From Promethearchaeia archaeon (GTDB lineage Archaea; Asgardarchaeota; Lokiarchaeia; Sigyniarchaeales; SOKP01): 62,800 nucleotides of DNA. Under the pieces are notes generated by a model that did no database searches, had not been told where the DNA came from, and was given only the letters and a program-made list of their open reading frames with translations. The position numbers were made by a program, and so were the translations under genes. Every line of letters begins with the position of its first letter. Position 1 is the first letter of the stretch. Where the stretch lies: the NCBI GenBank assembly GCA_029856105.1, contig JAHQWH010000012.1:1-62800 (forward strand), given 5' to 3'. Below are positions 44,934 through 52,246 of this stretch, piece by piece.

Positions 44934-45785
44934 TTACAACTGCTTTTTATACGCATTAAATGTGTTTTGAAGCAAGAAGCTAACCGTCATAGGACCTACC
45001 CCTCCTGGATTTGGAGTAATCCACGAACTCTTTTCTAAGACTCCTTCAAAATCTACATCTCCAGATAATTTTCCATTTTCTCTCGATATACCTACGTCGA
45101 TAATTACTACGCCTTCCTTTACCTTTTCTTTAGTAATGAACTTTGGTTTTCCTATGGCAACGATTAAAATATCAGCTTTTTTGGTATAATCATCTAATTT
45201 TTTTGTGAACGAGTGGCAGATTGTAACTGTAGCGTTTCTTTTTAAAAACATGAAGATTAAAGGTTTGCCAACTAAGTTAGAACGATTAATTATAACAACA
45301 TTTTTACCCTGAATATCAATGTTGTAATGTTCCAGAAGCGTAATAATGCCTTTAGGAGTACAAGGTACAAAATCTTCGTTGTAATCGAACAATTTACCCC
45401 GATTTATGGGATGTAACCCGTCTACATCTTTTATCGGATCGATTTGCTCAATAAATTCAGAAGTATAGGGTCGTAAATCTCTTGGCAATGGTATTTGTAG
45501 AAGTATTCCATGAACAGATTTGTCTTTATTTAGCTTCTCAATTTCATCCAACAATTCACTTTTTGTTATATTTTTGTCTAAATCGACTAATATAGACCCT
45601 ATTCCTATTTCAGAGCAAGTCTTTCTTTTAATATTTATATACAATTTTGAAGCGGGGTCGTCTCCAACTAAAACAGCGGCTAATTTAGGCTCGATCCCAC
45701 TCGTCTTAATAAAAGAAGATATTTTATCTTTTAATTCTAAATTTAATTTTAACGCCAATTCTTTTCCATTTAATATTTTTCCCAT
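44934..45785 (-). CDS. folD: Methylenetetrahydrofolate dehydrogenase/cyclohydrolase
   Basis: KDVDGLHP, PCTPKG, RSNLVGKP, DVGI and PGGVGPMT motifs. Confidence 0.97.
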   Translation of the reverse strand: MGKILNGKELALKLNLELKDKISSFIKTSGIEPKLAAVLVGDDPASKLYINIKRKTCSEIGIGSILVDLDKNITKSELLDEIEKLNKDKSVHGILLQIPLPRDLRPYTSEFIEQIDPIKDVDGLHPINRGKLFDYNEDFVPCTPKGIITLLEHYNIDIQGKNVVIINRSNLVGKPLIFMFLKRNATVTICHSFTKKLDDYTKKADILIVAIGKPKFITKEKVKEGVVIIDVGISRENGKLSGDVDFEGVLEKSSWITPNPGGVGPMTVSFLLQNTFNAYKKQL

Positions 45786-45885: not shown

Positions 45886-46992
45886 TTAAATTCTTCTTTT
45901 ACGCCAAATTAGATAAATAGCTGCAATGATAATTCCACTAATTGACATAATTAGAATTAGCGTTAAAAAGTTAAACTCAACCATGAAGATCTCTTCGTTT
46001 AAAAGATCTAAGGAATTAAAACCTTTAAGTATTTCAAAGGCATAGTAAGAAGCGCTAATGGAAGAGAGTTTCTGATCATTTTCTTCATCGTGGTCGCTAA
46101 AACCTCCGTCCCGAAAGTTTTGATGGTTTAAAACCCAATTTACAGTTGGATTTTTATTCAATTCGTTACTATCTATTAACTTTATTCCTTCGACGCAAAA
46201 ATAAGTGCTGCTTAATAAGGAATTTTCGGCAAACGCGTCAGGTAAATATCCACCGAAATTTTCGAGATTAGCAGGATCGTTTATGTAAAACGATTTCAGA
46301 TAATTCAATGTGCTAGTCTGATTTGCTAAATCACTAATATCTCCTAATTTTTCAACCAAATAAATGGCGTAATAAGTAGTAAGCAAGGTAGATGATAAAG
46401 TTTGGTCTCCCCCATAACCACCATCGGTATTGTTGCACGATAACACCCAATTTTTATGAATTGTTTGATTCTCAACTGGCTCGTTGATTAAAGTAAATAT
46501 GTTATATATAAAGAAAGTCGAGATCAGATTTGCATTAGTAGATGTGTTAGTAGGGCTAAATCCACCCGTACTTTGAACTGTCTCATTTATATATTCGTAA
46601 ATCTTATCGTGTAAAATTGAATCTAACAGATCTAGCTTTCCAAGGAAACCTAGCGTACTTAAAAGGTAATATAAGTCATATATATCAATTTCTTCGTTGT
46701 TAAACATAGAAGTAATTTCATCTTCCAAGTATACTTCTAAAGCTGGAATATCTACTTTTTTAGTCGCTTGTAAAAAACTTTCAATAAGATAAGCGTTATA
46801 AAAATCTATAATTTCTATAGCGTTAGCAGTATCTTGCGTTAATATGCCAAAACTCTCGTCGTTATTTTGGTTTTCGTAAAGAAAATCGATTAAATGAATC
46901 TGTCGGGTTTTTGCTGATGCTATGGGAGCAATACCCAACAACAAGGTTATTATTAGCGCTAAAAACGTTAAACTCCGAAGTTTATATTTCAA
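45886..46992 (-). CDS. Secreted, membrane-anchored prenyltransferase/squalene-cyclase-repeat protein
   Basis: Signal peptide; four repeats (QSTGGF, NTDGGY, NFGGY, NFRDGGF, each followed by a S/T-Y/F-Y/F helix); C-terminal TM plus RKRR. Confidence 0.75.
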   Translation of the reverse strand: MKYKLRSLTFLALIITLLLGIAPIASAKTRQIHLIDFLYENQNNDESFGILTQDTANAIEIIDFYNAYLIESFLQATKKVDIPALEVYLEDEITSMFNNEEIDIYDLYYLLSTLGFLGKLDLLDSILHDKIYEYINETVQSTGGFSPTNTSTNANLISTFFIYNIFTLINEPVENQTIHKNWVLSCNNTDGGYGGDQTLSSTLLTTYYAIYLVEKLGDISDLANQTSTLNYLKSFYINDPANLENFGGYLPDAFAENSLLSSTYFCVEGIKLIDSNELNKNPTVNWVLNHQNFRDGGFSDHDEENDQKLSSISASYYAFEILKGFNSLDLLNEEIFMVEFNFLTLILIMSISGIIIAAIYLIWRKRRI

Positions 46993-47145: not shown

Positions 47146-48666
47146 TTAAAAGATTTCGCTAATATCTTTGTATAATAAGTCACTGTTGTTCTGAAATTCC
47201 TCGAGTGTAACAAACAAGCTCTGGAACGATGGTAAGCTTCCTAATATACTAGCGCCATTGAATATGGCAAATTGGAGGTTATCAGGAACGAAAAATCTTA
47301 TCACTTCATCAGATGAGTTGTAAAAACCAGAAAATTCTCTAGCAGGAGCTGATTGTTTAATAATCTCACGAGGGATCTCTGGTATATCAGTTGATTGAAA
47401 ATTTTCCCCACAAAAAGGACAAAATACAGATGCACTATCTTCAATTGTTTTTTTACACTTAGCACAAATTGTTTTACCATCCACAATATCTTTCTTCTTC
47501 TTTTTGGGAAAGTTACCAATAGAAAGCTCTGGTAAAACCATTCTCCCTCCACAAGATGGACAGAATTCCTTACCATCAGATAGGTCTACTAATACACCAC
47601 AATTTGGACAATTATCTTTTTGCTTTCGTGTTTTTCCCTTTAATTCCATTTTTTTATTTTTAGAAGGTTGAACAATTTTAGGTTTAGGAATTTTTCCCAA
47701 CTGGGGGATTAATTTGACTAATTCCAATTTCAACCTTTCTTCAAACCCCGAATATTGGAGATTACCACCTGCAATCATAATATGGGAGAGGAGGTCGCTC
47801 CAATAATATTTATCAATTCCTTGTAGACTGTTAATTACAGCTTGTGGAATATTTAATATGTTATAACCTAATAAATTGGGTTGAAACAATACCTCGGGAG
47901 CTTCGTGGAAAATATAGTTAGGAATATCAATACTAGCCCCGTCTGGCATGGCAAAACTAAAACTCTCGTTTAATTTAGGAGGATTTTCGGGATCCAAAAC
48001 GAAGTAACAGTTTTTCTCTTTAATTTCTTTAATTATCTCGTCAACAGCACTGGACTCAATATTAATACCCTCCCTCATTAATAAATTTTTTAGATGTTGA
48101 TTGACATCAGTTCCAGCTAAAGTCAATTTTTGAACTGATTGATCAACAATCTGCCCACCAATAATCGGGGTGATCCATGTAATCCCATCACCGCTCTCAA
48201 TTACTAACCCCGTCGTTAATCCTACGCTAAATAATGCCAAGACTGGTGTTGGAACCATTATTAAACTTTTTACTCTATGAGTTTCGTACAAAACACGAGC
48301 AATATATTCTTTAGTCTCTCGTAGGAGAAATGGTGGTTCGGTATATAATACGGGGTAATTAGAAAGATTTTCAATCCTTAAAAGTGAATAGAAAATGTAA
48401 TTTAAAATCTCATAATAATCGTTCCAATCCATTATCGCCCCCCTTTCGATAGGACGCTTTATTTTAAGAACGCCGCGCATTTTTACAACATCCATTCCAA
48501 TATATATATTACGTGCGCTTACATCAACCATAACAGCCTTGTATTTTTCAGTGCCAGTGATTGTGGGAAAAACATACCTAGGACTGGGTTCTCCCGCGAA
48601 TCCTATTTTAGTATAGGCTGAACCAATGTCGACGATAATCGGAGTTCCTGGAAGGGGTATTGCCAT
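47146..48666 (-). CDS. Actin-related protein with internal double zinc-ribbon insertion
   Basis: DIGSAYTKIGFAG, RPIERG, PVLYTEPP, TTGLVIESGDGIT, IKEKNCY, PEVLFQP, IAGGN and GASILGSL are collinear with actin. Confidence 0.93.
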   Translation of the reverse strand: MAIPLPGTPIIVDIGSAYTKIGFAGEPSPRYVFPTITGTEKYKAVMVDVSARNIYIGMDVVKMRGVLKIKRPIERGAIMDWNDYYEILNYIFYSLLRIENLSNYPVLYTEPPFLLRETKEYIARVLYETHRVKSLIMVPTPVLALFSVGLTTGLVIESGDGITWITPIIGGQIVDQSVQKLTLAGTDVNQHLKNLLMREGINIESSAVDEIIKEIKEKNCYFVLDPENPPKLNESFSFAMPDGASIDIPNYIFHEAPEVLFQPNLLGYNILNIPQAVINSLQGIDKYYWSDLLSHIMIAGGNLQYSGFEERLKLELVKLIPQLGKIPKPKIVQPSKNKKMELKGKTRKQKDNCPNCGVLVDLSDGKEFCPSCGGRMVLPELSIGNFPKKKKKDIVDGKTICAKCKKTIEDSASVFCPFCGENFQSTDIPEIPREIIKQSAPAREFSGFYNSSDEVIRFFVPDNLQFAIFNGASILGSLPSFQSLFVTLEEFQNNSDLLYKDISEIF

Positions 48667-48806
48667 AATTTATTTTTTTTTATGTGCTTTTATATAAATT
48701 TCCAAATTTAAATATTGGTATAATATTATTATAAAATGATTTTCTTTGATTAAATAATTTTTCCAAAAGAGGAAGCATTAATTAGAATATATTAATAGAT
48801 GATCTT

Positions 48807-48971: not shown

Positions 48972-49385
48972 TTAATCGATTTTTAAAGATTTTTCTAGTT
49001 TCTTTTCGATCCCTTCTAATTCAATTAAAAGATTTTTGTATGTTTTCAATAAATACAGGCCCCAATCGCTTAATTTCACCCAACCACCTCCACCAAGACC
49101 TCCTTTTTTTGTTTCTACGGGTGATATTCCGGTTCTAGCTTTAATTTTATTTAAAATATTCCATGCATATTTGTAAGAGTAGCCGCATTCTTTTGCCGCT
49201 TGAGTTAAAGATATAGGGGCTTTAACATCGGGTTTATCGATTTTTTCAAGAAGATTAGCCCAACCAGATCCTAAAATATTTTTACGGTCACCATTGTGAA
49301 ATTCTAGCCAGAATTTAATTCCAAAACCTATTTTAGCTTTTAATTTTTCGATATCGGGTTTATCATCTTCGGATTGTTTTTCCAT
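48972..49385 (-). CDS. ModE-type winged-helix regulator (DNA-binding domain only)
   Basis: SLTQAAKECGYSYKYAW and ETKKGGLGGGG motifs; no TOBE/Mop domain. Confidence 0.85.
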   Translation of the reverse strand: MEKQSEDDKPDIEKLKAKIGFGIKFWLEFHNGDRKNILGSGWANLLEKIDKPDVKAPISLTQAAKECGYSYKYAWNILNKIKARTGISPVETKKGGLGGGGWVKLSDWGLYLLKTYKNLLIELEGIEKKLEKSLKID

Positions 49386-51406: not shown

Positions 51407-52246
51407 ATGACTGATATGAAAAATAAAGAAGAAGATTGGGTAATTCCAAAATCAGAGATAACTTTTGAATATCTAAAAAAATTCAATCGAAGTGCGATGA
51501 TTTTACATTTAGTACAAGGTCTACTAATGGTATTATTTGGATTTTTACCCTTCTTAGATTTTTCAATGGATATATATACATTCTATTTAGAGTTTGATCT
51601 CGGACCTCCACCTACATTATCTCCAAATCCCGAAGTGATATTTACCTTCACTGTTTTAGGAGCTTTCGTCGGAACATTCCTTCTCTTATCTGCAATTGCC
51701 CACTTTCTCATTGCTTACCCTTTAAACAAATTGTATATCAGAGATCTAAAGAAAGGAATAAATAAAGTGCGTTGGTTTGAATATGCACTTTCCAGTTCCA
51801 TTATGATTGTTCTTATCGCTTTATTCTTTGGAGTCTTAGATTTCTGGGCTTTATTTATGATATTCATATCTAATGCCCTTATGAATATGTTTGGGCTAAT
51901 GATGGAACTCCATAACGTATATACGAGGAAATTGAAGGAAAAAGTTAGATGGACGGCTTATTATCTTGGTGTTATAGCTGGTGCAGTTCCTTGGATCGTT
52001 ATTACCGCATATTTCATTAATACCGGCGTAGAAGGTGGAGAGATTCCCGGTTTCGTATATTGGATTTACGCAATTGAATTAATCTTCTTTAATACATTTG
52101 CAATTAATATGATCCTTCAATACAAAGGAATAGGTAAGTGGAAAGATTATTTATATGGAGAAAGAGTGTACATCATACTTAGTTTAGTCTCCAAAACATT
52201 TTTGGCGTGGTTGGTTTTTGGAGGAGTGTTCTCTCCAACTGGATAA
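51407..52246 (+). CDS. Heliorhodopsin
   Basis: ILHLVQ, SAIAHF, RWFEYALSSSIM (counterion Glu), MFGLMME, PW, FAINM, YGERVYIILSLVSKTFLAW (retinal-binding Lys in SxxxK). Confidence 0.96.
   Translation: MTDMKNKEEDWVIPKSEITFEYLKKFNRSAMILHLVQGLLMVLFGFLPFLDFSMDIYTFYLEFDLGPPPTLSPNPEVIFTFTVLGAFVGTFLLLSAIAHFLIAYPLNKLYIRDLKKGINKVRWFEYALSSSIMIVLIALFFGVLDFWALFMIFISNALMNMFGLMMELHNVYTRKLKEKVRWTAYYLGVIAGAVPWIVITAYFINTGVEGGEIPGFVYWIYAIELIFFNTFAINMILQYKGIGKWKDYLYGERVYIILSLVSKTFLAWLVFGGVFSPTG

What the first reader, a model, noticed from the sequence alone, without database searches (positions are those of the whole stretch)
47146..48666. Actin-related protein carrying a ~130-aa double zinc-ribbon insertion
Seen: the protein is collinear with actin on both sides of residues ~322-452 (nt ~47311-47703). 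That segment is a Lys-rich insert with CPNC/CPSC and CAKC/CPFC pairs, between the equivalents of actin 'EITALAP' and '[11 protein letters not shown]'. Known: Arp3 has a much shorter insertion at this subdomain-3 loop, and Asgard genomes encode ARP-like paralogs besides Lokiactin. Inference: this is an actin fold displaying two zinc ribbons and basic patches (KNKK, RKQK, KKKKK), so it could link actin to nucleic acid or to a partner complex, reminiscent of nuclear ARPs. I know of no characterised actin with this architecture.
Basis: partly seen in the sequence, partly recalled or inferred. Interest (0 to 1): 0.8.

Follow-up and report, generated by a model that had tools for sequence, protein, structure and literature searches.

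The report
Asgard actin relative with zinc-ribbon insert
This is a real, conserved gene of one order of Loki-type Asgard archaea encoding an actin-like protein that has lost actin's ATP-splitting residues and carries two small zinc-binding modules on flexible tethers at the face where a filament would normally grow; it may end or anchor actin filaments, but nobody has tested it.

Summary
ORF 47146-48666 (-) encodes a 506-aa actin-family protein (Pfam Actin 8.8e-70; model TM about 0.9 to actin). About 130 aa are inserted between actin's 'ALAPSTM' loop and the '[10 protein letters not shown]' strand and hold four CxxC pairs.

The insert is neither chimera nor accident. All eight Cys are invariant in 120 homologues (61-93% identity) and in more distant members. 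The clade has SH-aLRT 100 with the insert columns excluded. It occurs as one copy in 67/68, 6/7, 1/1 and 3/3 sampled genomes of the four GTDB families of one order, and in none of 226 genomes of 28 other Asgard families. Ca. L. ossiferum has a one-ribbon version (UYP44711.1).

The basic patches are not conserved (insert net charge +10 to -29), so a nucleic-acid role lacks support. Actin Q137 is never Q in the clade, and H161 is W/S/F/T (H only in L. ossiferum). Pointed-face filament contacts are invariant and lokiactin-like. Barbed-face contacts are replaced, and the insert sits at the T324 contact.

Best reading (about 0.33): a non-hydrolysing ARP that docks on a lokiactin barbed end, blocks growth and offers tethered zinc ribbons to a partner. 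The asymmetry is only suggestive (P = 0.07 and 0.19).

This scan had found the family before on other genomes. No paper was found describing the insert.

The parts
47146..48666 (-). Complete CDS of the zinc-ribbon actin-related protein (506 aa + stop)
   Evidence: orthologues
47695..48666 (-). Actin core, N-terminal part (residues 1-324: subdomains 1, 2, 4 and most of 3)
   Evidence: Pfam Actin 9-334; PDB actin alignments 6-323; model pLDDT mostly above 90; Foldseek TM to actin about 0.9
48511..48549 (-). D-loop equivalent (residues 40-52, EKYKAVMVDVSAR), nearly invariant in the clade
   Evidence: K41 and Y42 in 122/122, M46 in 116/122 (L in the other six)
48175..48249 (-). Stretch holding the substitutions at actin's hydrolysis residues: T140 (actin Q137), E157 (D154), W164 (H161)
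   Evidence: HMMER alignment to actin; clade table
47302..47694 (-). Insertion (residues 325-455) at the actin 322-326 loop: conserved entry 'LGxIPKP', variable linkers, two zinc ribbons, conserved exit 'PAxEF'
   Evidence: linkers pLDDT below 50
47539..47616 (-). Zinc ribbon 1 (residues 351-376; C353, C356, C369, C372)
   Evidence: Pfam Zn_ribbon_3 352-376; Cys invariant; pLDDT about 80 in the insert-only model
47401..47472 (-). Zinc ribbon 2 (residues 399-422; C401, C404, C416, C419; conserved S413, F415, Y/F418, G420)
   Evidence: Pfam Zn_ribbon_15 and DZR_2. Missing in the L. ossiferum orthologue
47149..47301 (-). Actin core, C-terminal part (residues 456-506; equivalent of actin '[24 protein letters not shown]...')
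   Evidence: second HMMER domain 456-495; pLDDT 82-95
48691..48698 (-). TATA-like 'TTTATATA' 25-32 nt upstream of the ATG, inside a 305-nt intergenic region; possible own promoter with a very short leader (inference, untested)
   Evidence: sequence read directly
48972..49385 (-). Upstream neighbour, 137 aa, ModE-N-terminal-like winged helix; adjacent to the ARP in 13 of 14 loci compared, but the family is phylum-wide
   Evidence: PDB ModE 1o7l/1b9m E about 5e-6; synteny; 201/301 Asgard genomes
45886..46992 (-). Downstream neighbour, 368 aa, prenyltransferase-type alpha-alpha toroid with N-terminal signal-like segment and C-terminal membrane anchor; adjacent to the ARP in 12 of 14 loci, including both second-family loci (29-30% identity)
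   Evidence: Pfam PF00432 4.8e-19; sequence; synteny

Best explanation
The gene encodes an order-specific Asgard actin-related protein that probably still binds nucleotide but hydrolyses it poorly or not at all. It keeps a lokiactin-like pointed-end face (D-loop, R62 and D244 equivalents). With this face it can dock onto the barbed-end face of lokiactin, either at a filament end or on a monomer. Its own barbed-end face is remodelled and carries, at the T324 contact loop, two independently folded Cys4 zinc ribbons on flexible tethers. A further lokiactin subunit therefore cannot add in the canonical way. The protein would thus terminate (cap) or mark barbed ends and use the ribbons to hold a still unknown partner. 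Shown here: the actin fold, the position, conservation and single origin of the insert, the loss of Q137/H161, and which contact residues are kept or changed. Inferred: zinc binding, docking on lokiactin, capping, partner recruitment.
For: (1) Actin fold and insertion point. (2) The insert is under selection. All eight Cys are invariant. D351, L362, D410, S413, F415, Y418, G420, E444 and F445 are at least 95% conserved. The ribbons are conserved almost like the core (0.78 and 0.69 vs 0.82), while the linkers are not (0.41-0.49). (3) The ribbons fold as separate beads: pLDDT about 80, pTM 0.26, linkers below 50. (4) Hydrolysis residues: Q137 is T/S/A in 122/122 aligned clade members; H161 is W in the window's family and S/F/W/T in the others; lokiactins and S. 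pombe Arp1 keep Q and H. D11, K18, G156, G158, K213, E214, G301 and G302 are invariant, so nucleotide binding is plausible. (5) I used the longitudinal F-actin contact pairs listed in PMC12674126: R39-D286, R62-D288, D244-R290, E241-T324, K61-E167, M44 pocket, Q49-Y169. The pointed-side partners are K41, Y42, M63, R64, K68, D242 and G243 in 122/122 and M46 in 116/122; apart from M63, they equal lokiactin's own residues or are K/R exchanges of them. The barbed-side partners are changed and mostly variable: Y166 to I/L/V, E167 to N/S/G, Y169 to Q/E/K/T, D288 to Y/N/H/L, R290 to W, and T324 is replaced by the 130-aa insert. Lokiactin keeps D286, D288 and R290, the partners that this protein's pointed face needs. 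(6) One copy per genome across the order. The L. ossiferum orthologue is transcribed below lokiactin level according to PMC9834061.
Against: The asymmetry is only suggestive when tested against random core positions. Pointed-set conservation is 0.883 vs a core mean of 0.80 (P = 0.07) and barbed-set 0.742 (P = 0.19). The consensus equals a lokiactin residue at 7/12 pointed vs 2/10 barbed positions, with a 36% background. Some barbed-cleft residues (F146, G149, T151) and W289 are strongly conserved, so the barbed face is not simply decaying and may have its own ligand. Lateral-contact residues (E270, K113 and E195 equivalents) also differ from lokiactin, which would weaken docking at a two-stranded end. 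No coordinates were available, so whether the tethered insert really occludes the barbed face was not examined. No binding data of any kind exist.
Confidence: 0.33

Rival explanations
1. Non-filament heterodimer module. The protein uses its pointed face to sequester one lokiactin monomer, or to pair with the mirror-image ARP paralogue of the same genomes. The result is a closed scaffold comparable in logic to eukaryotic Arp-actin modules, with the zinc ribbons attaching it to a larger complex.
For: The same residue pattern as for capping fits this. A second ARP clade of the order (L003, L016, L017) keeps all barbed-face contacts (Y143, Y166, E167, Y169, D286, D288, R290) but has changed pointed-face ones (M44 to D/G, K61 to S, R62 to I/L). 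The two ARPs are therefore complementary. Loss of Q137/H161 fits a static scaffold.
Against: No co-localisation of the two ARP genes: they lie on different contigs, C12 and C227. No partner complex was identified. Nothing separates this from capping with present data.
Confidence: 0.25
2. One reading: an ARP that links actin to nucleic acid through zinc ribbons and basic patches, like a chromatin-associated ARP.
For: Zinc ribbons often bind nucleic acids (general knowledge). In the window's own family linker 1 is on average basic, +3.8. A ModE-N-like winged-helix gene sits immediately upstream in 13/14 loci.
Against: Basic character is not conserved: the insert net charge ranges from +10 to -29 and is negative in five of the six more distant members aligned. 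ZnR1 itself is acidic on average, -2.2. The winged-helix neighbour belongs to a family found in 201/301 Asgard genomes, far beyond the ARP's range. No structural match of the insert to a nucleic-acid-binding domain, best Foldseek E 0.27.
Confidence: 0.1
3. Membrane or surface-protein tether. The ribbons and lysine-rich linkers attach the actin-like core, and through it lokiactin, to the membrane or to the short cytoplasmic tail of the neighbouring membrane-anchored toroid protein.
For: The prenyltransferase-type toroid protein, with a signal-like N-terminus and a C-terminal anchor ending in a WRKRRI tail, is the immediate downstream gene on the same strand in 12/14 loci. This includes both loci of the second family, where it is only 29-30% identical. 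Lokiactin filaments run along the membrane in cell bodies and protrusions (PMC9834061).
Against: Adjacency may be inherited synteny; FolD is kept in the block too. Basic linkers are not conserved. No amphipathic or lipid-binding motif was identified. Co-occurrence of the toroid protein was not tested.
Confidence: 0.12
4. A self-polymerising divergent actin whose filaments are decorated by zinc ribbons on the outside.
For: Complete actin fold with nucleotide-binding motifs. Strong conservation of both the D-loop and part of the hydrophobic cleft.
Against: Its own barbed face lacks the partners its pointed face would need: D288 to Y/N/H/L, R290 to W, Y169 to Q/E/K, and the insert at T324. Q137/H161 are lost. 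Lateral-contact residues vary.
Confidence: 0.08

Closest known systems
Ca. Lokiarchaeum ossiferum actin homologue UYP44711.1, one of the three 'ARPs' in Fig. 5d-e of Rodrigues-Oliveira et al. 2022 (PMC9834061)
   Same: Same clade and same order. I identified it through an exact match of the paper's RT-qPCR primer 361F in genome G312. Same insertion point, Q137 replaced (S), pointed-face residues K, Y, M, R, K, D kept. Reported as transcribed at a lower level than lokiactin.
   Different: 499 aa with only the first zinc ribbon, followed by an acidic tail. H161 is retained and D157 is C. The paper does not mention the insert or zinc ('zinc' 0 occurrences).
Lokiactin (Asgard actin; own-genome copies L001 and L002)
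   Same: Same fold, same D-loop 'KY..M' signature, about 36-38% identity over the core.
   Different: Lokiactin has no insert and keeps Q137, H161, D286, D288 and R290. It forms a separate clade. It is the filament former in situ (PMC9834061).
Eukaryotic Arp1 (centractin), the name JGI gives some members
   Same: PDB Arp1 chains score like actin (225 bits). S. pombe centractin is 39% identical over the first 275 residues.
   Different: No specific grouping in the tree; the backbone is unresolved. Arp1 keeps Q137, H161 and both filament faces and has no insert at this loop.
Eukaryotic ARPs with large functional insertions or end-binding roles (Arp11 at the dynactin pointed end; Arp4/Arp5/Arp8 in remodellers). 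From general knowledge, not tested here.
   Same: Same logic: an actin fold that keeps one interaction face, has lost polymerisation-coupled ATPase features and carries lineage-specific insertions.
   Different: No sequence or tree evidence of orthology. The insert is a pair of Cys4 zinc ribbons. The retained face is the pointed one, so any end binding would be at the barbed end, where eukaryotes use non-actin cappers.
Double zinc ribbon (Pfam DZR PF12773, Zn_ribbon_3 PF13248) proteins of archaea
   Same: Two CxxC-x(12)-CxxC knuckle pairs. An insert-only search recovers many multi-ribbon proteins at E 1e-13 to 1e-3.
   Different: Those are stand-alone or terminal modules. Here the pair is spliced into an internal loop of an actin fold. 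Only actin-linked proteins (P0124, P0152, P0168, P0178, P0125; P0125 is a fragment) match over the whole insert.

Membership tests
Actin family (Pfam PF00022) | Profile score above the curated cut-off | tested here: met
   235.8 bits vs cut-off 27, E 8.8e-70
Actin family (Pfam PF00022) | Four-subdomain actin fold | tested here: met
   AlphaFold core pLDDT above 90; Foldseek TM (target) 0.87-0.92 to actin chains, E about 1e-35
Actin family (Pfam PF00022) | Phosphate-1, phosphate-2 and adenosine motifs | tested here: met
   D13, K20, G159, G161, K216, E217, G300 and G301 invariant; S14 equivalent kept in the window's family but E in six distant members and Q in L. ossiferum; D157 equivalent is E/T there and C in L. 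ossiferum
Filament-forming actin / lokiactin | Catalytic Q137 and H161 | tested here: not met
   T140 and W164 here; Q137 never Q in the 122 aligned clade members nor in the L. ossiferum copy (S); alignment to actin
Filament-forming actin / lokiactin | Both longitudinal contact faces retained | tested here: not met
   Pointed face retained. On the barbed face D288, R290, Y166, E167 and Y169 are replaced and T324 is interrupted by the insert
Filament-forming actin / lokiactin | Groups with lokiactins in a tree | tested here: not met
   Separate clade, SH-aLRT 100, stem 0.88
Arp1 / centractin | Specific sister relation to eukaryotic Arp1 | tested here: inconclusive
   Backbone of the tree is an unresolved polytomy; only one Arp1 and one partial Arp3 sequence were available
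Double zinc ribbon (DZR PF12773 / Zn_ribbon_3 PF13248) | Profile score above the curated cut-off | tested here: inconclusive
   Zn_ribbon_3 27.5 vs 27 (just met); DZR 23.1 vs 27.3 (below) in this protein. DZR is listed among the precomputed Pfam domains of most orthologues
Double zinc ribbon (DZR PF12773 / Zn_ribbon_3 PF13248) | Four CxxC knuckles in two pairs, conserved | tested here: met
   8/8 Cys invariant; two beta-hairpin ribbons in both models
Double zinc ribbon (DZR PF12773 / Zn_ribbon_3 PF13248) | Zinc actually bound | not testable with these tools
   Needs metal analysis of purified protein
Chromatin-type (nuclear) ARPs, Arp4/5/8 | Orthology, or association with a remodeller (HSA-helix partner) | not tested
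   No eukaryotic nuclear ARP sequences were available by reference; no remodeller gene in the neighbourhood
Barbed-end capping factor (functional class) | Binds filament barbed ends and blocks elongation | not testable with these tools
   Only residue-level inference

The most novel reading that the evidence does not exclude
Loki-type Asgard archaea use dedicated actin paralogues as filament-end factors. The zinc-ribbon ARP would be a barbed-end terminator or anchor whose ribbons couple filament ends to a membrane or protein partner. The mirror-image ARP (L003 type) would be its pointed-end counterpart. That would be an actin-fold-based end-control system that evolved independently of eukaryotic CapZ, tropomodulin and Arp2/3 solutions.
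Probability: 0.2. Interest if true: 0.85.

Novelty: new variant of a known kind. Interest (0 to 1): 0.6.

Why it matters
[quoted passage not shown] How filament ends are controlled in these cells is unknown. Here is an order-wide, single-copy ARP with a remodelled growth face and tethered zinc modules. Orthologues exist in at least one cultured strain: Ca. L. ossiferum, shown by a primer match. A complete 4.36-Mb genome of the same family also has a copy. This gives a concrete, testable candidate regulator or anchor. It also shows that splicing a metal-binding module into an actin surface loop, the same logic as eukaryotic ARP insertions, arose in archaea too.

Tried and rejected
There is therefore no docking evidence either way.

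(2) Foldseek of the insert-only model against the PDB gave no hit with E below 0.27. The weak local superpositions (RanBP2-type fingers, ArnA) only show a generic small Cys4 ribbon.

(3) The search for related loci with the clade-wide alignment A3 failed because no stretch was conserved enough. With A4 it returned 62 Asgard-type MAG loci and one spurious short bacterial match (L094), but no cultured strain.

(4) A literature search for the Arp3 insert at this loop found nothing usable. The available 'Arp3' sequence P0275 lacks the region.

(5) Linkage to the ModE-N-like neighbour as a specific partner is rejected as evidence, because the family is in 201/301 Asgard genomes.

(6) Chimera or pseudogene is rejected.

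(7) The 91-aa ORF 47301..47576 (-) inside the gene in another frame is a mechanical ORF only.

(8) Names such as Hodarchaeota, Thorarchaeota, Odinarchaeota or Heimdallarchaeota on some records are not taken as evidence of a wider range. The GTDB-based sampling finds the gene in one order only.
Full report
1. THE OBSERVATION

The minus-strand ORF 47146..48666 encodes 506 aa. Pfam Actin matches residues 9-334 (E 8.8e-70, 235.8 bits, cut-off 27). HMMER against all PDB chains aligns residues 6-323 and then 456-495 to consecutive parts of actin. For the best hit, 9wc4_A 'HC1 actin', these are residues 29-351 and 354-393. For an ordinary actin, 8trm_A, they are 9-334 and 328-366.

The four CxxC pairs (C353/C356, C369/C372, C401/C404, C416/C419) and the lysine runs are there. 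Zn_ribbon_3 just reaches its cut-off. DZR, DZR_2 and Zn_ribbon_15 are just below theirs.

An AlphaFold model built on a 55-sequence alignment has a confident actin core: pLDDT mostly above 90, and Foldseek TM 0.87-0.92 to actin chains. The two ribbons are moderately confident (63-74), and the three linkers are below 50. Folded alone on 51 sequences, the insert gives two ribbons at pLDDT about 80 but pTM 0.26, meaning two beads with no fixed mutual arrangement.

2. REAL AND CONSERVED

- The 120 best database homologues are 61-93% identical, nearly all are 495-515 aa, and nearly all carry Actin plus zinc-ribbon Pfam domains.
- All eight Cys are invariant among them. So, nearly, are D351, L362, D410, S413, F415, Y418, G420, E444, F445 and the entry motif LGxIPKP.
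- An insert-only phmmer search of 1.8 billion representatives recovers further, more divergent actin-plus-double-ribbon proteins (P0124, P0152, P0168, P0178). Beyond those it finds only generic multi-ribbon proteins.
- In a 17-sequence clade-wide alignment (down to 30% identity) the eight Cys remain invariant, while linker length and composition vary freely.
- Within the window's family the ribbons are conserved almost like the core (mean top-residue frequency 0.78 and 0.69 vs 0.82). The linkers are not (0.41-0.49).

3. DISTRIBUTION AND ORIGIN

The window's genome (3.66 Mb, 238 contigs) has five actin-family genes: two lokiactin-like, two other ARPs and this one.

With a profile of the C-terminal half including the insert (A3), the gene is found as a single copy in:
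- 67/68 sampled genomes of the window's GTDB family;
- 6/7 of a second family of the same order;
- 1/1 and 3/3 of two further families of that order (in the last, the profile matches one ribbon clearly).
It is found in none of 226 genomes from 28 other Asgard families.

An insert-only query had missed the second family. The full-length query found it. One genome has a copy broken by stops (G225), and one 100%-complete genome has none (G040).

A maximum-likelihood tree with the insert columns dropped puts all insert-bearing proteins, plus one truncated record, in one clade (SH-aLRT 100, stem 0.88). Its relation to lokiactins, Arp1, Arp3 and the other Asgard ARPs is unresolved. This indicates one acquisition of the insert, at or before the base of the order.

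The RT-qPCR primer 361F that Rodrigues-Oliveira et al. give for 'actin homologue UYP44711.1' (PMC9834061) matches exactly once, in a 6.0-Mb one-contig genome of the second family. It lies inside a 499-aa member of this clade. So the Ca. L. ossiferum orthologue is already in the published ARP tree and expression panel. It has only the first ribbon plus an acidic tail. That paper never mentions zinc or the insert. Three full-text searches found no paper describing an Asgard actin with a zinc-ribbon insert.

4. WHAT THE ACTIN PART HAS KEPT AND LOST

Alignment to actin comes; alignment to lokiactins and S. pombe Arp1; counts.

Nucleotide-binding residues:
- D11, K18, G156, G158, K213, E214, G301 and G302 equivalents are invariant.
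- The S14 equivalent is kept in the window's family. It is E in the six distant members aligned and Q in L. ossiferum.
- The D157 equivalent becomes E/T in the six distant members and C in L. ossiferum.

Water-positioning residues:
- Q137 is T (93) or S (23) in the window's family and S/A elsewhere. It is never Q.
- H161 is W in all 116 family members and S/F/W/T elsewhere. It is H only in L. ossiferum.
- Lokiactins and Arp1 keep both residues.
It is established for actin that Q137 and H161 position the hydrolytic water. The loss suggests ATP binding without efficient hydrolysis (inference).

5. FILAMENT FACES

I took the longitudinal contact pairs from a published actin-trimer/F-actin analysis (PMC12674126): R39-D286, R62-D288, D244-R290, E241-T324, K61-E167/Y166, H40 to the carbonyl of residue 170, M44 in the hydrophobic pocket, and Q49-Y169.

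Pointed-side partners in this clade:
- K41, Y42, M63, R64, K68, D242 and G243 are invariant in 122/122; M46 is in 116/122 (L in the other six).
- Apart from M63 (lokiactins have L), they equal lokiactin's own residues (K, Y, M, K, D, G) or are K/R exchanges of them (R64 against K/R in lokiactins).

Barbed-side partners:
- Y166 to I/L/V;
- E167 to N/S/G/D;
- Y169 to Q/E/K/T;
- D288 to Y/N/H/L;
- R290 to W (I/L/R in distant members);
- T324 is the insertion point itself.
Lokiactin keeps D286, D288 and R290.

So this protein's pointed face has what it needs to sit on a lokiactin barbed face. A lokiactin subunit, or another copy of the ARP, would not find the canonical partners on the ARP's barbed face.

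I tested how strong this is. Against random sets of core positions, the pointed set is more conserved (0.883 vs 0.80, P = 0.07) and the barbed set less (0.742, P = 0.19). The clade consensus equals a lokiactin residue at 7/12 pointed and 2/10 barbed positions, against 36% overall. That is suggestive, not decisive.

Two caveats apply. F146, G149, T151 and W289 on the barbed side are strongly conserved, so that face probably has a ligand of its own. Lateral-contact residues also differ from lokiactin.

6. THE INSERT'S LIKELY ROLE

Insert net charge in the window's family averages +1.8 (range -9 to +10). It is -2 to -29 in five of the six more distant members and +4 in the sixth. Several of them carry long acidic tails after ribbon 2.

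A conserved polybasic nucleic-acid or lipid contact is therefore unlikely. What is conserved is the two ribbons themselves, including non-cysteine surface residues. That argues for a specific protein or other ligand (inference). Foldseek gives no significant match.

7. NEIGHBOURHOOD

The order of genes is: ModE-N-like 137-aa gene, then the ARP, then a prenyltransferase-type toroid protein with a signal-like N-terminus and a C-terminal anchor, then FolD. All are on one strand.
- This order is kept throughout the window's family, and the ARP-toroid-FolD part is kept in both loci of the second family examined, where the ARP is only 36-45% identical.
- The winged-helix family is phylum-wide (201/301). 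In one second-family genome its best copy lies on another contig than the ARP. It is therefore not a specific partner.
- Adjacency of the toroid protein is unexplained. It is the basis of the membrane-tether rival.
- The ARP has a 305-nt upstream spacer with a TATA-like box 25-32 nt before the ATG.

8. VERDICT

The best-supported reading is a non-hydrolysing, end-binding or heterodimer-forming ARP whose growth face is replaced by tethered zinc ribbons. Capping of lokiactin barbed ends is my preferred mechanism (0.33). The non-filament heterodimer module is close behind (0.25).

It is a new variant of a known kind: an Asgard ARP, uncharacterised, whose insert is not described in the literature I could search. 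Earlier notes of this scan reported the same family on other genomes and proposed the same capping idea. I re-derived the residue pattern independently, added the statistical caveat, and narrowed the range to one GTDB order.

Noticed in passing
L003 (G000:C227:36416-37498); also L016 (G089) and L017 (G213): A second ARP clade of the same order is the mirror image of this one. Its barbed-face contacts are all actin-like (Y143, Y166, E167, Y169, D286, D288, R290). Its pointed-face contacts are changed (M44 to D/G, K61 to S, R62 to I/L), and Q137/H161 are replaced (D/G, R). It may be a pointed-end counterpart or a heterodimer partner.
   Followed up: partly
L095 367..1866 (-) (G312:C1, about 1.225 Mb): The Ca. 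L. ossiferum orthologue was identified by the published primer for UYP44711.1. It has only one zinc ribbon plus an acidic tail and retains H161, so the second ribbon is dispensable in at least one lineage.
   Followed up: partly
window 45886-46992 (-), 47146-48666 (-), 48972-49385 (-), 44934-45785 (-): The block ModE-N-like gene, ARP, anchored prenyltransferase-type toroid protein, FolD is conserved. The toroid protein and FolD follow the ARP even in second-family genomes where the ARP is only 36-45% identical. No functional explanation was found.
   Followed up: partly
L001 (G000:C74:18410-19522) and L002 (G000:C160:7906-9018): The genome carries two lokiactin-like genes (441.7 and 426.7 bits to Pfam Actin, 85% identical to each other).
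   Followed up: no
window 51407-52246 (+): A heliorhodopsin gene (Pfam PF18761, E 1e-89) lies 3 kb from the ARP. No match to it was found in any of the 14 loci compared.
   Followed up: no
L038 (DATKTW010000100.1): A contig labelled 'Candidatus Nanopelagicaceae bacterium' carries a 71%-identical copy of this Asgard gene. This is probably a mis-binned or mislabelled MAG record.
   Followed up: no
G225:C102:13300-13931; G040: One family member has a copy interrupted by three stops (possible pseudogene or assembly error). One 100%-complete genome of the family has no match.
   Followed up: no
L014 (G297:C99) and L015 (G240:C168): Two genomes of other families in the same class have actin-like matches (28-30% identity) inside very long open frames (778 and 861 aa). 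These may be fused actin-domain proteins.
   Followed up: no
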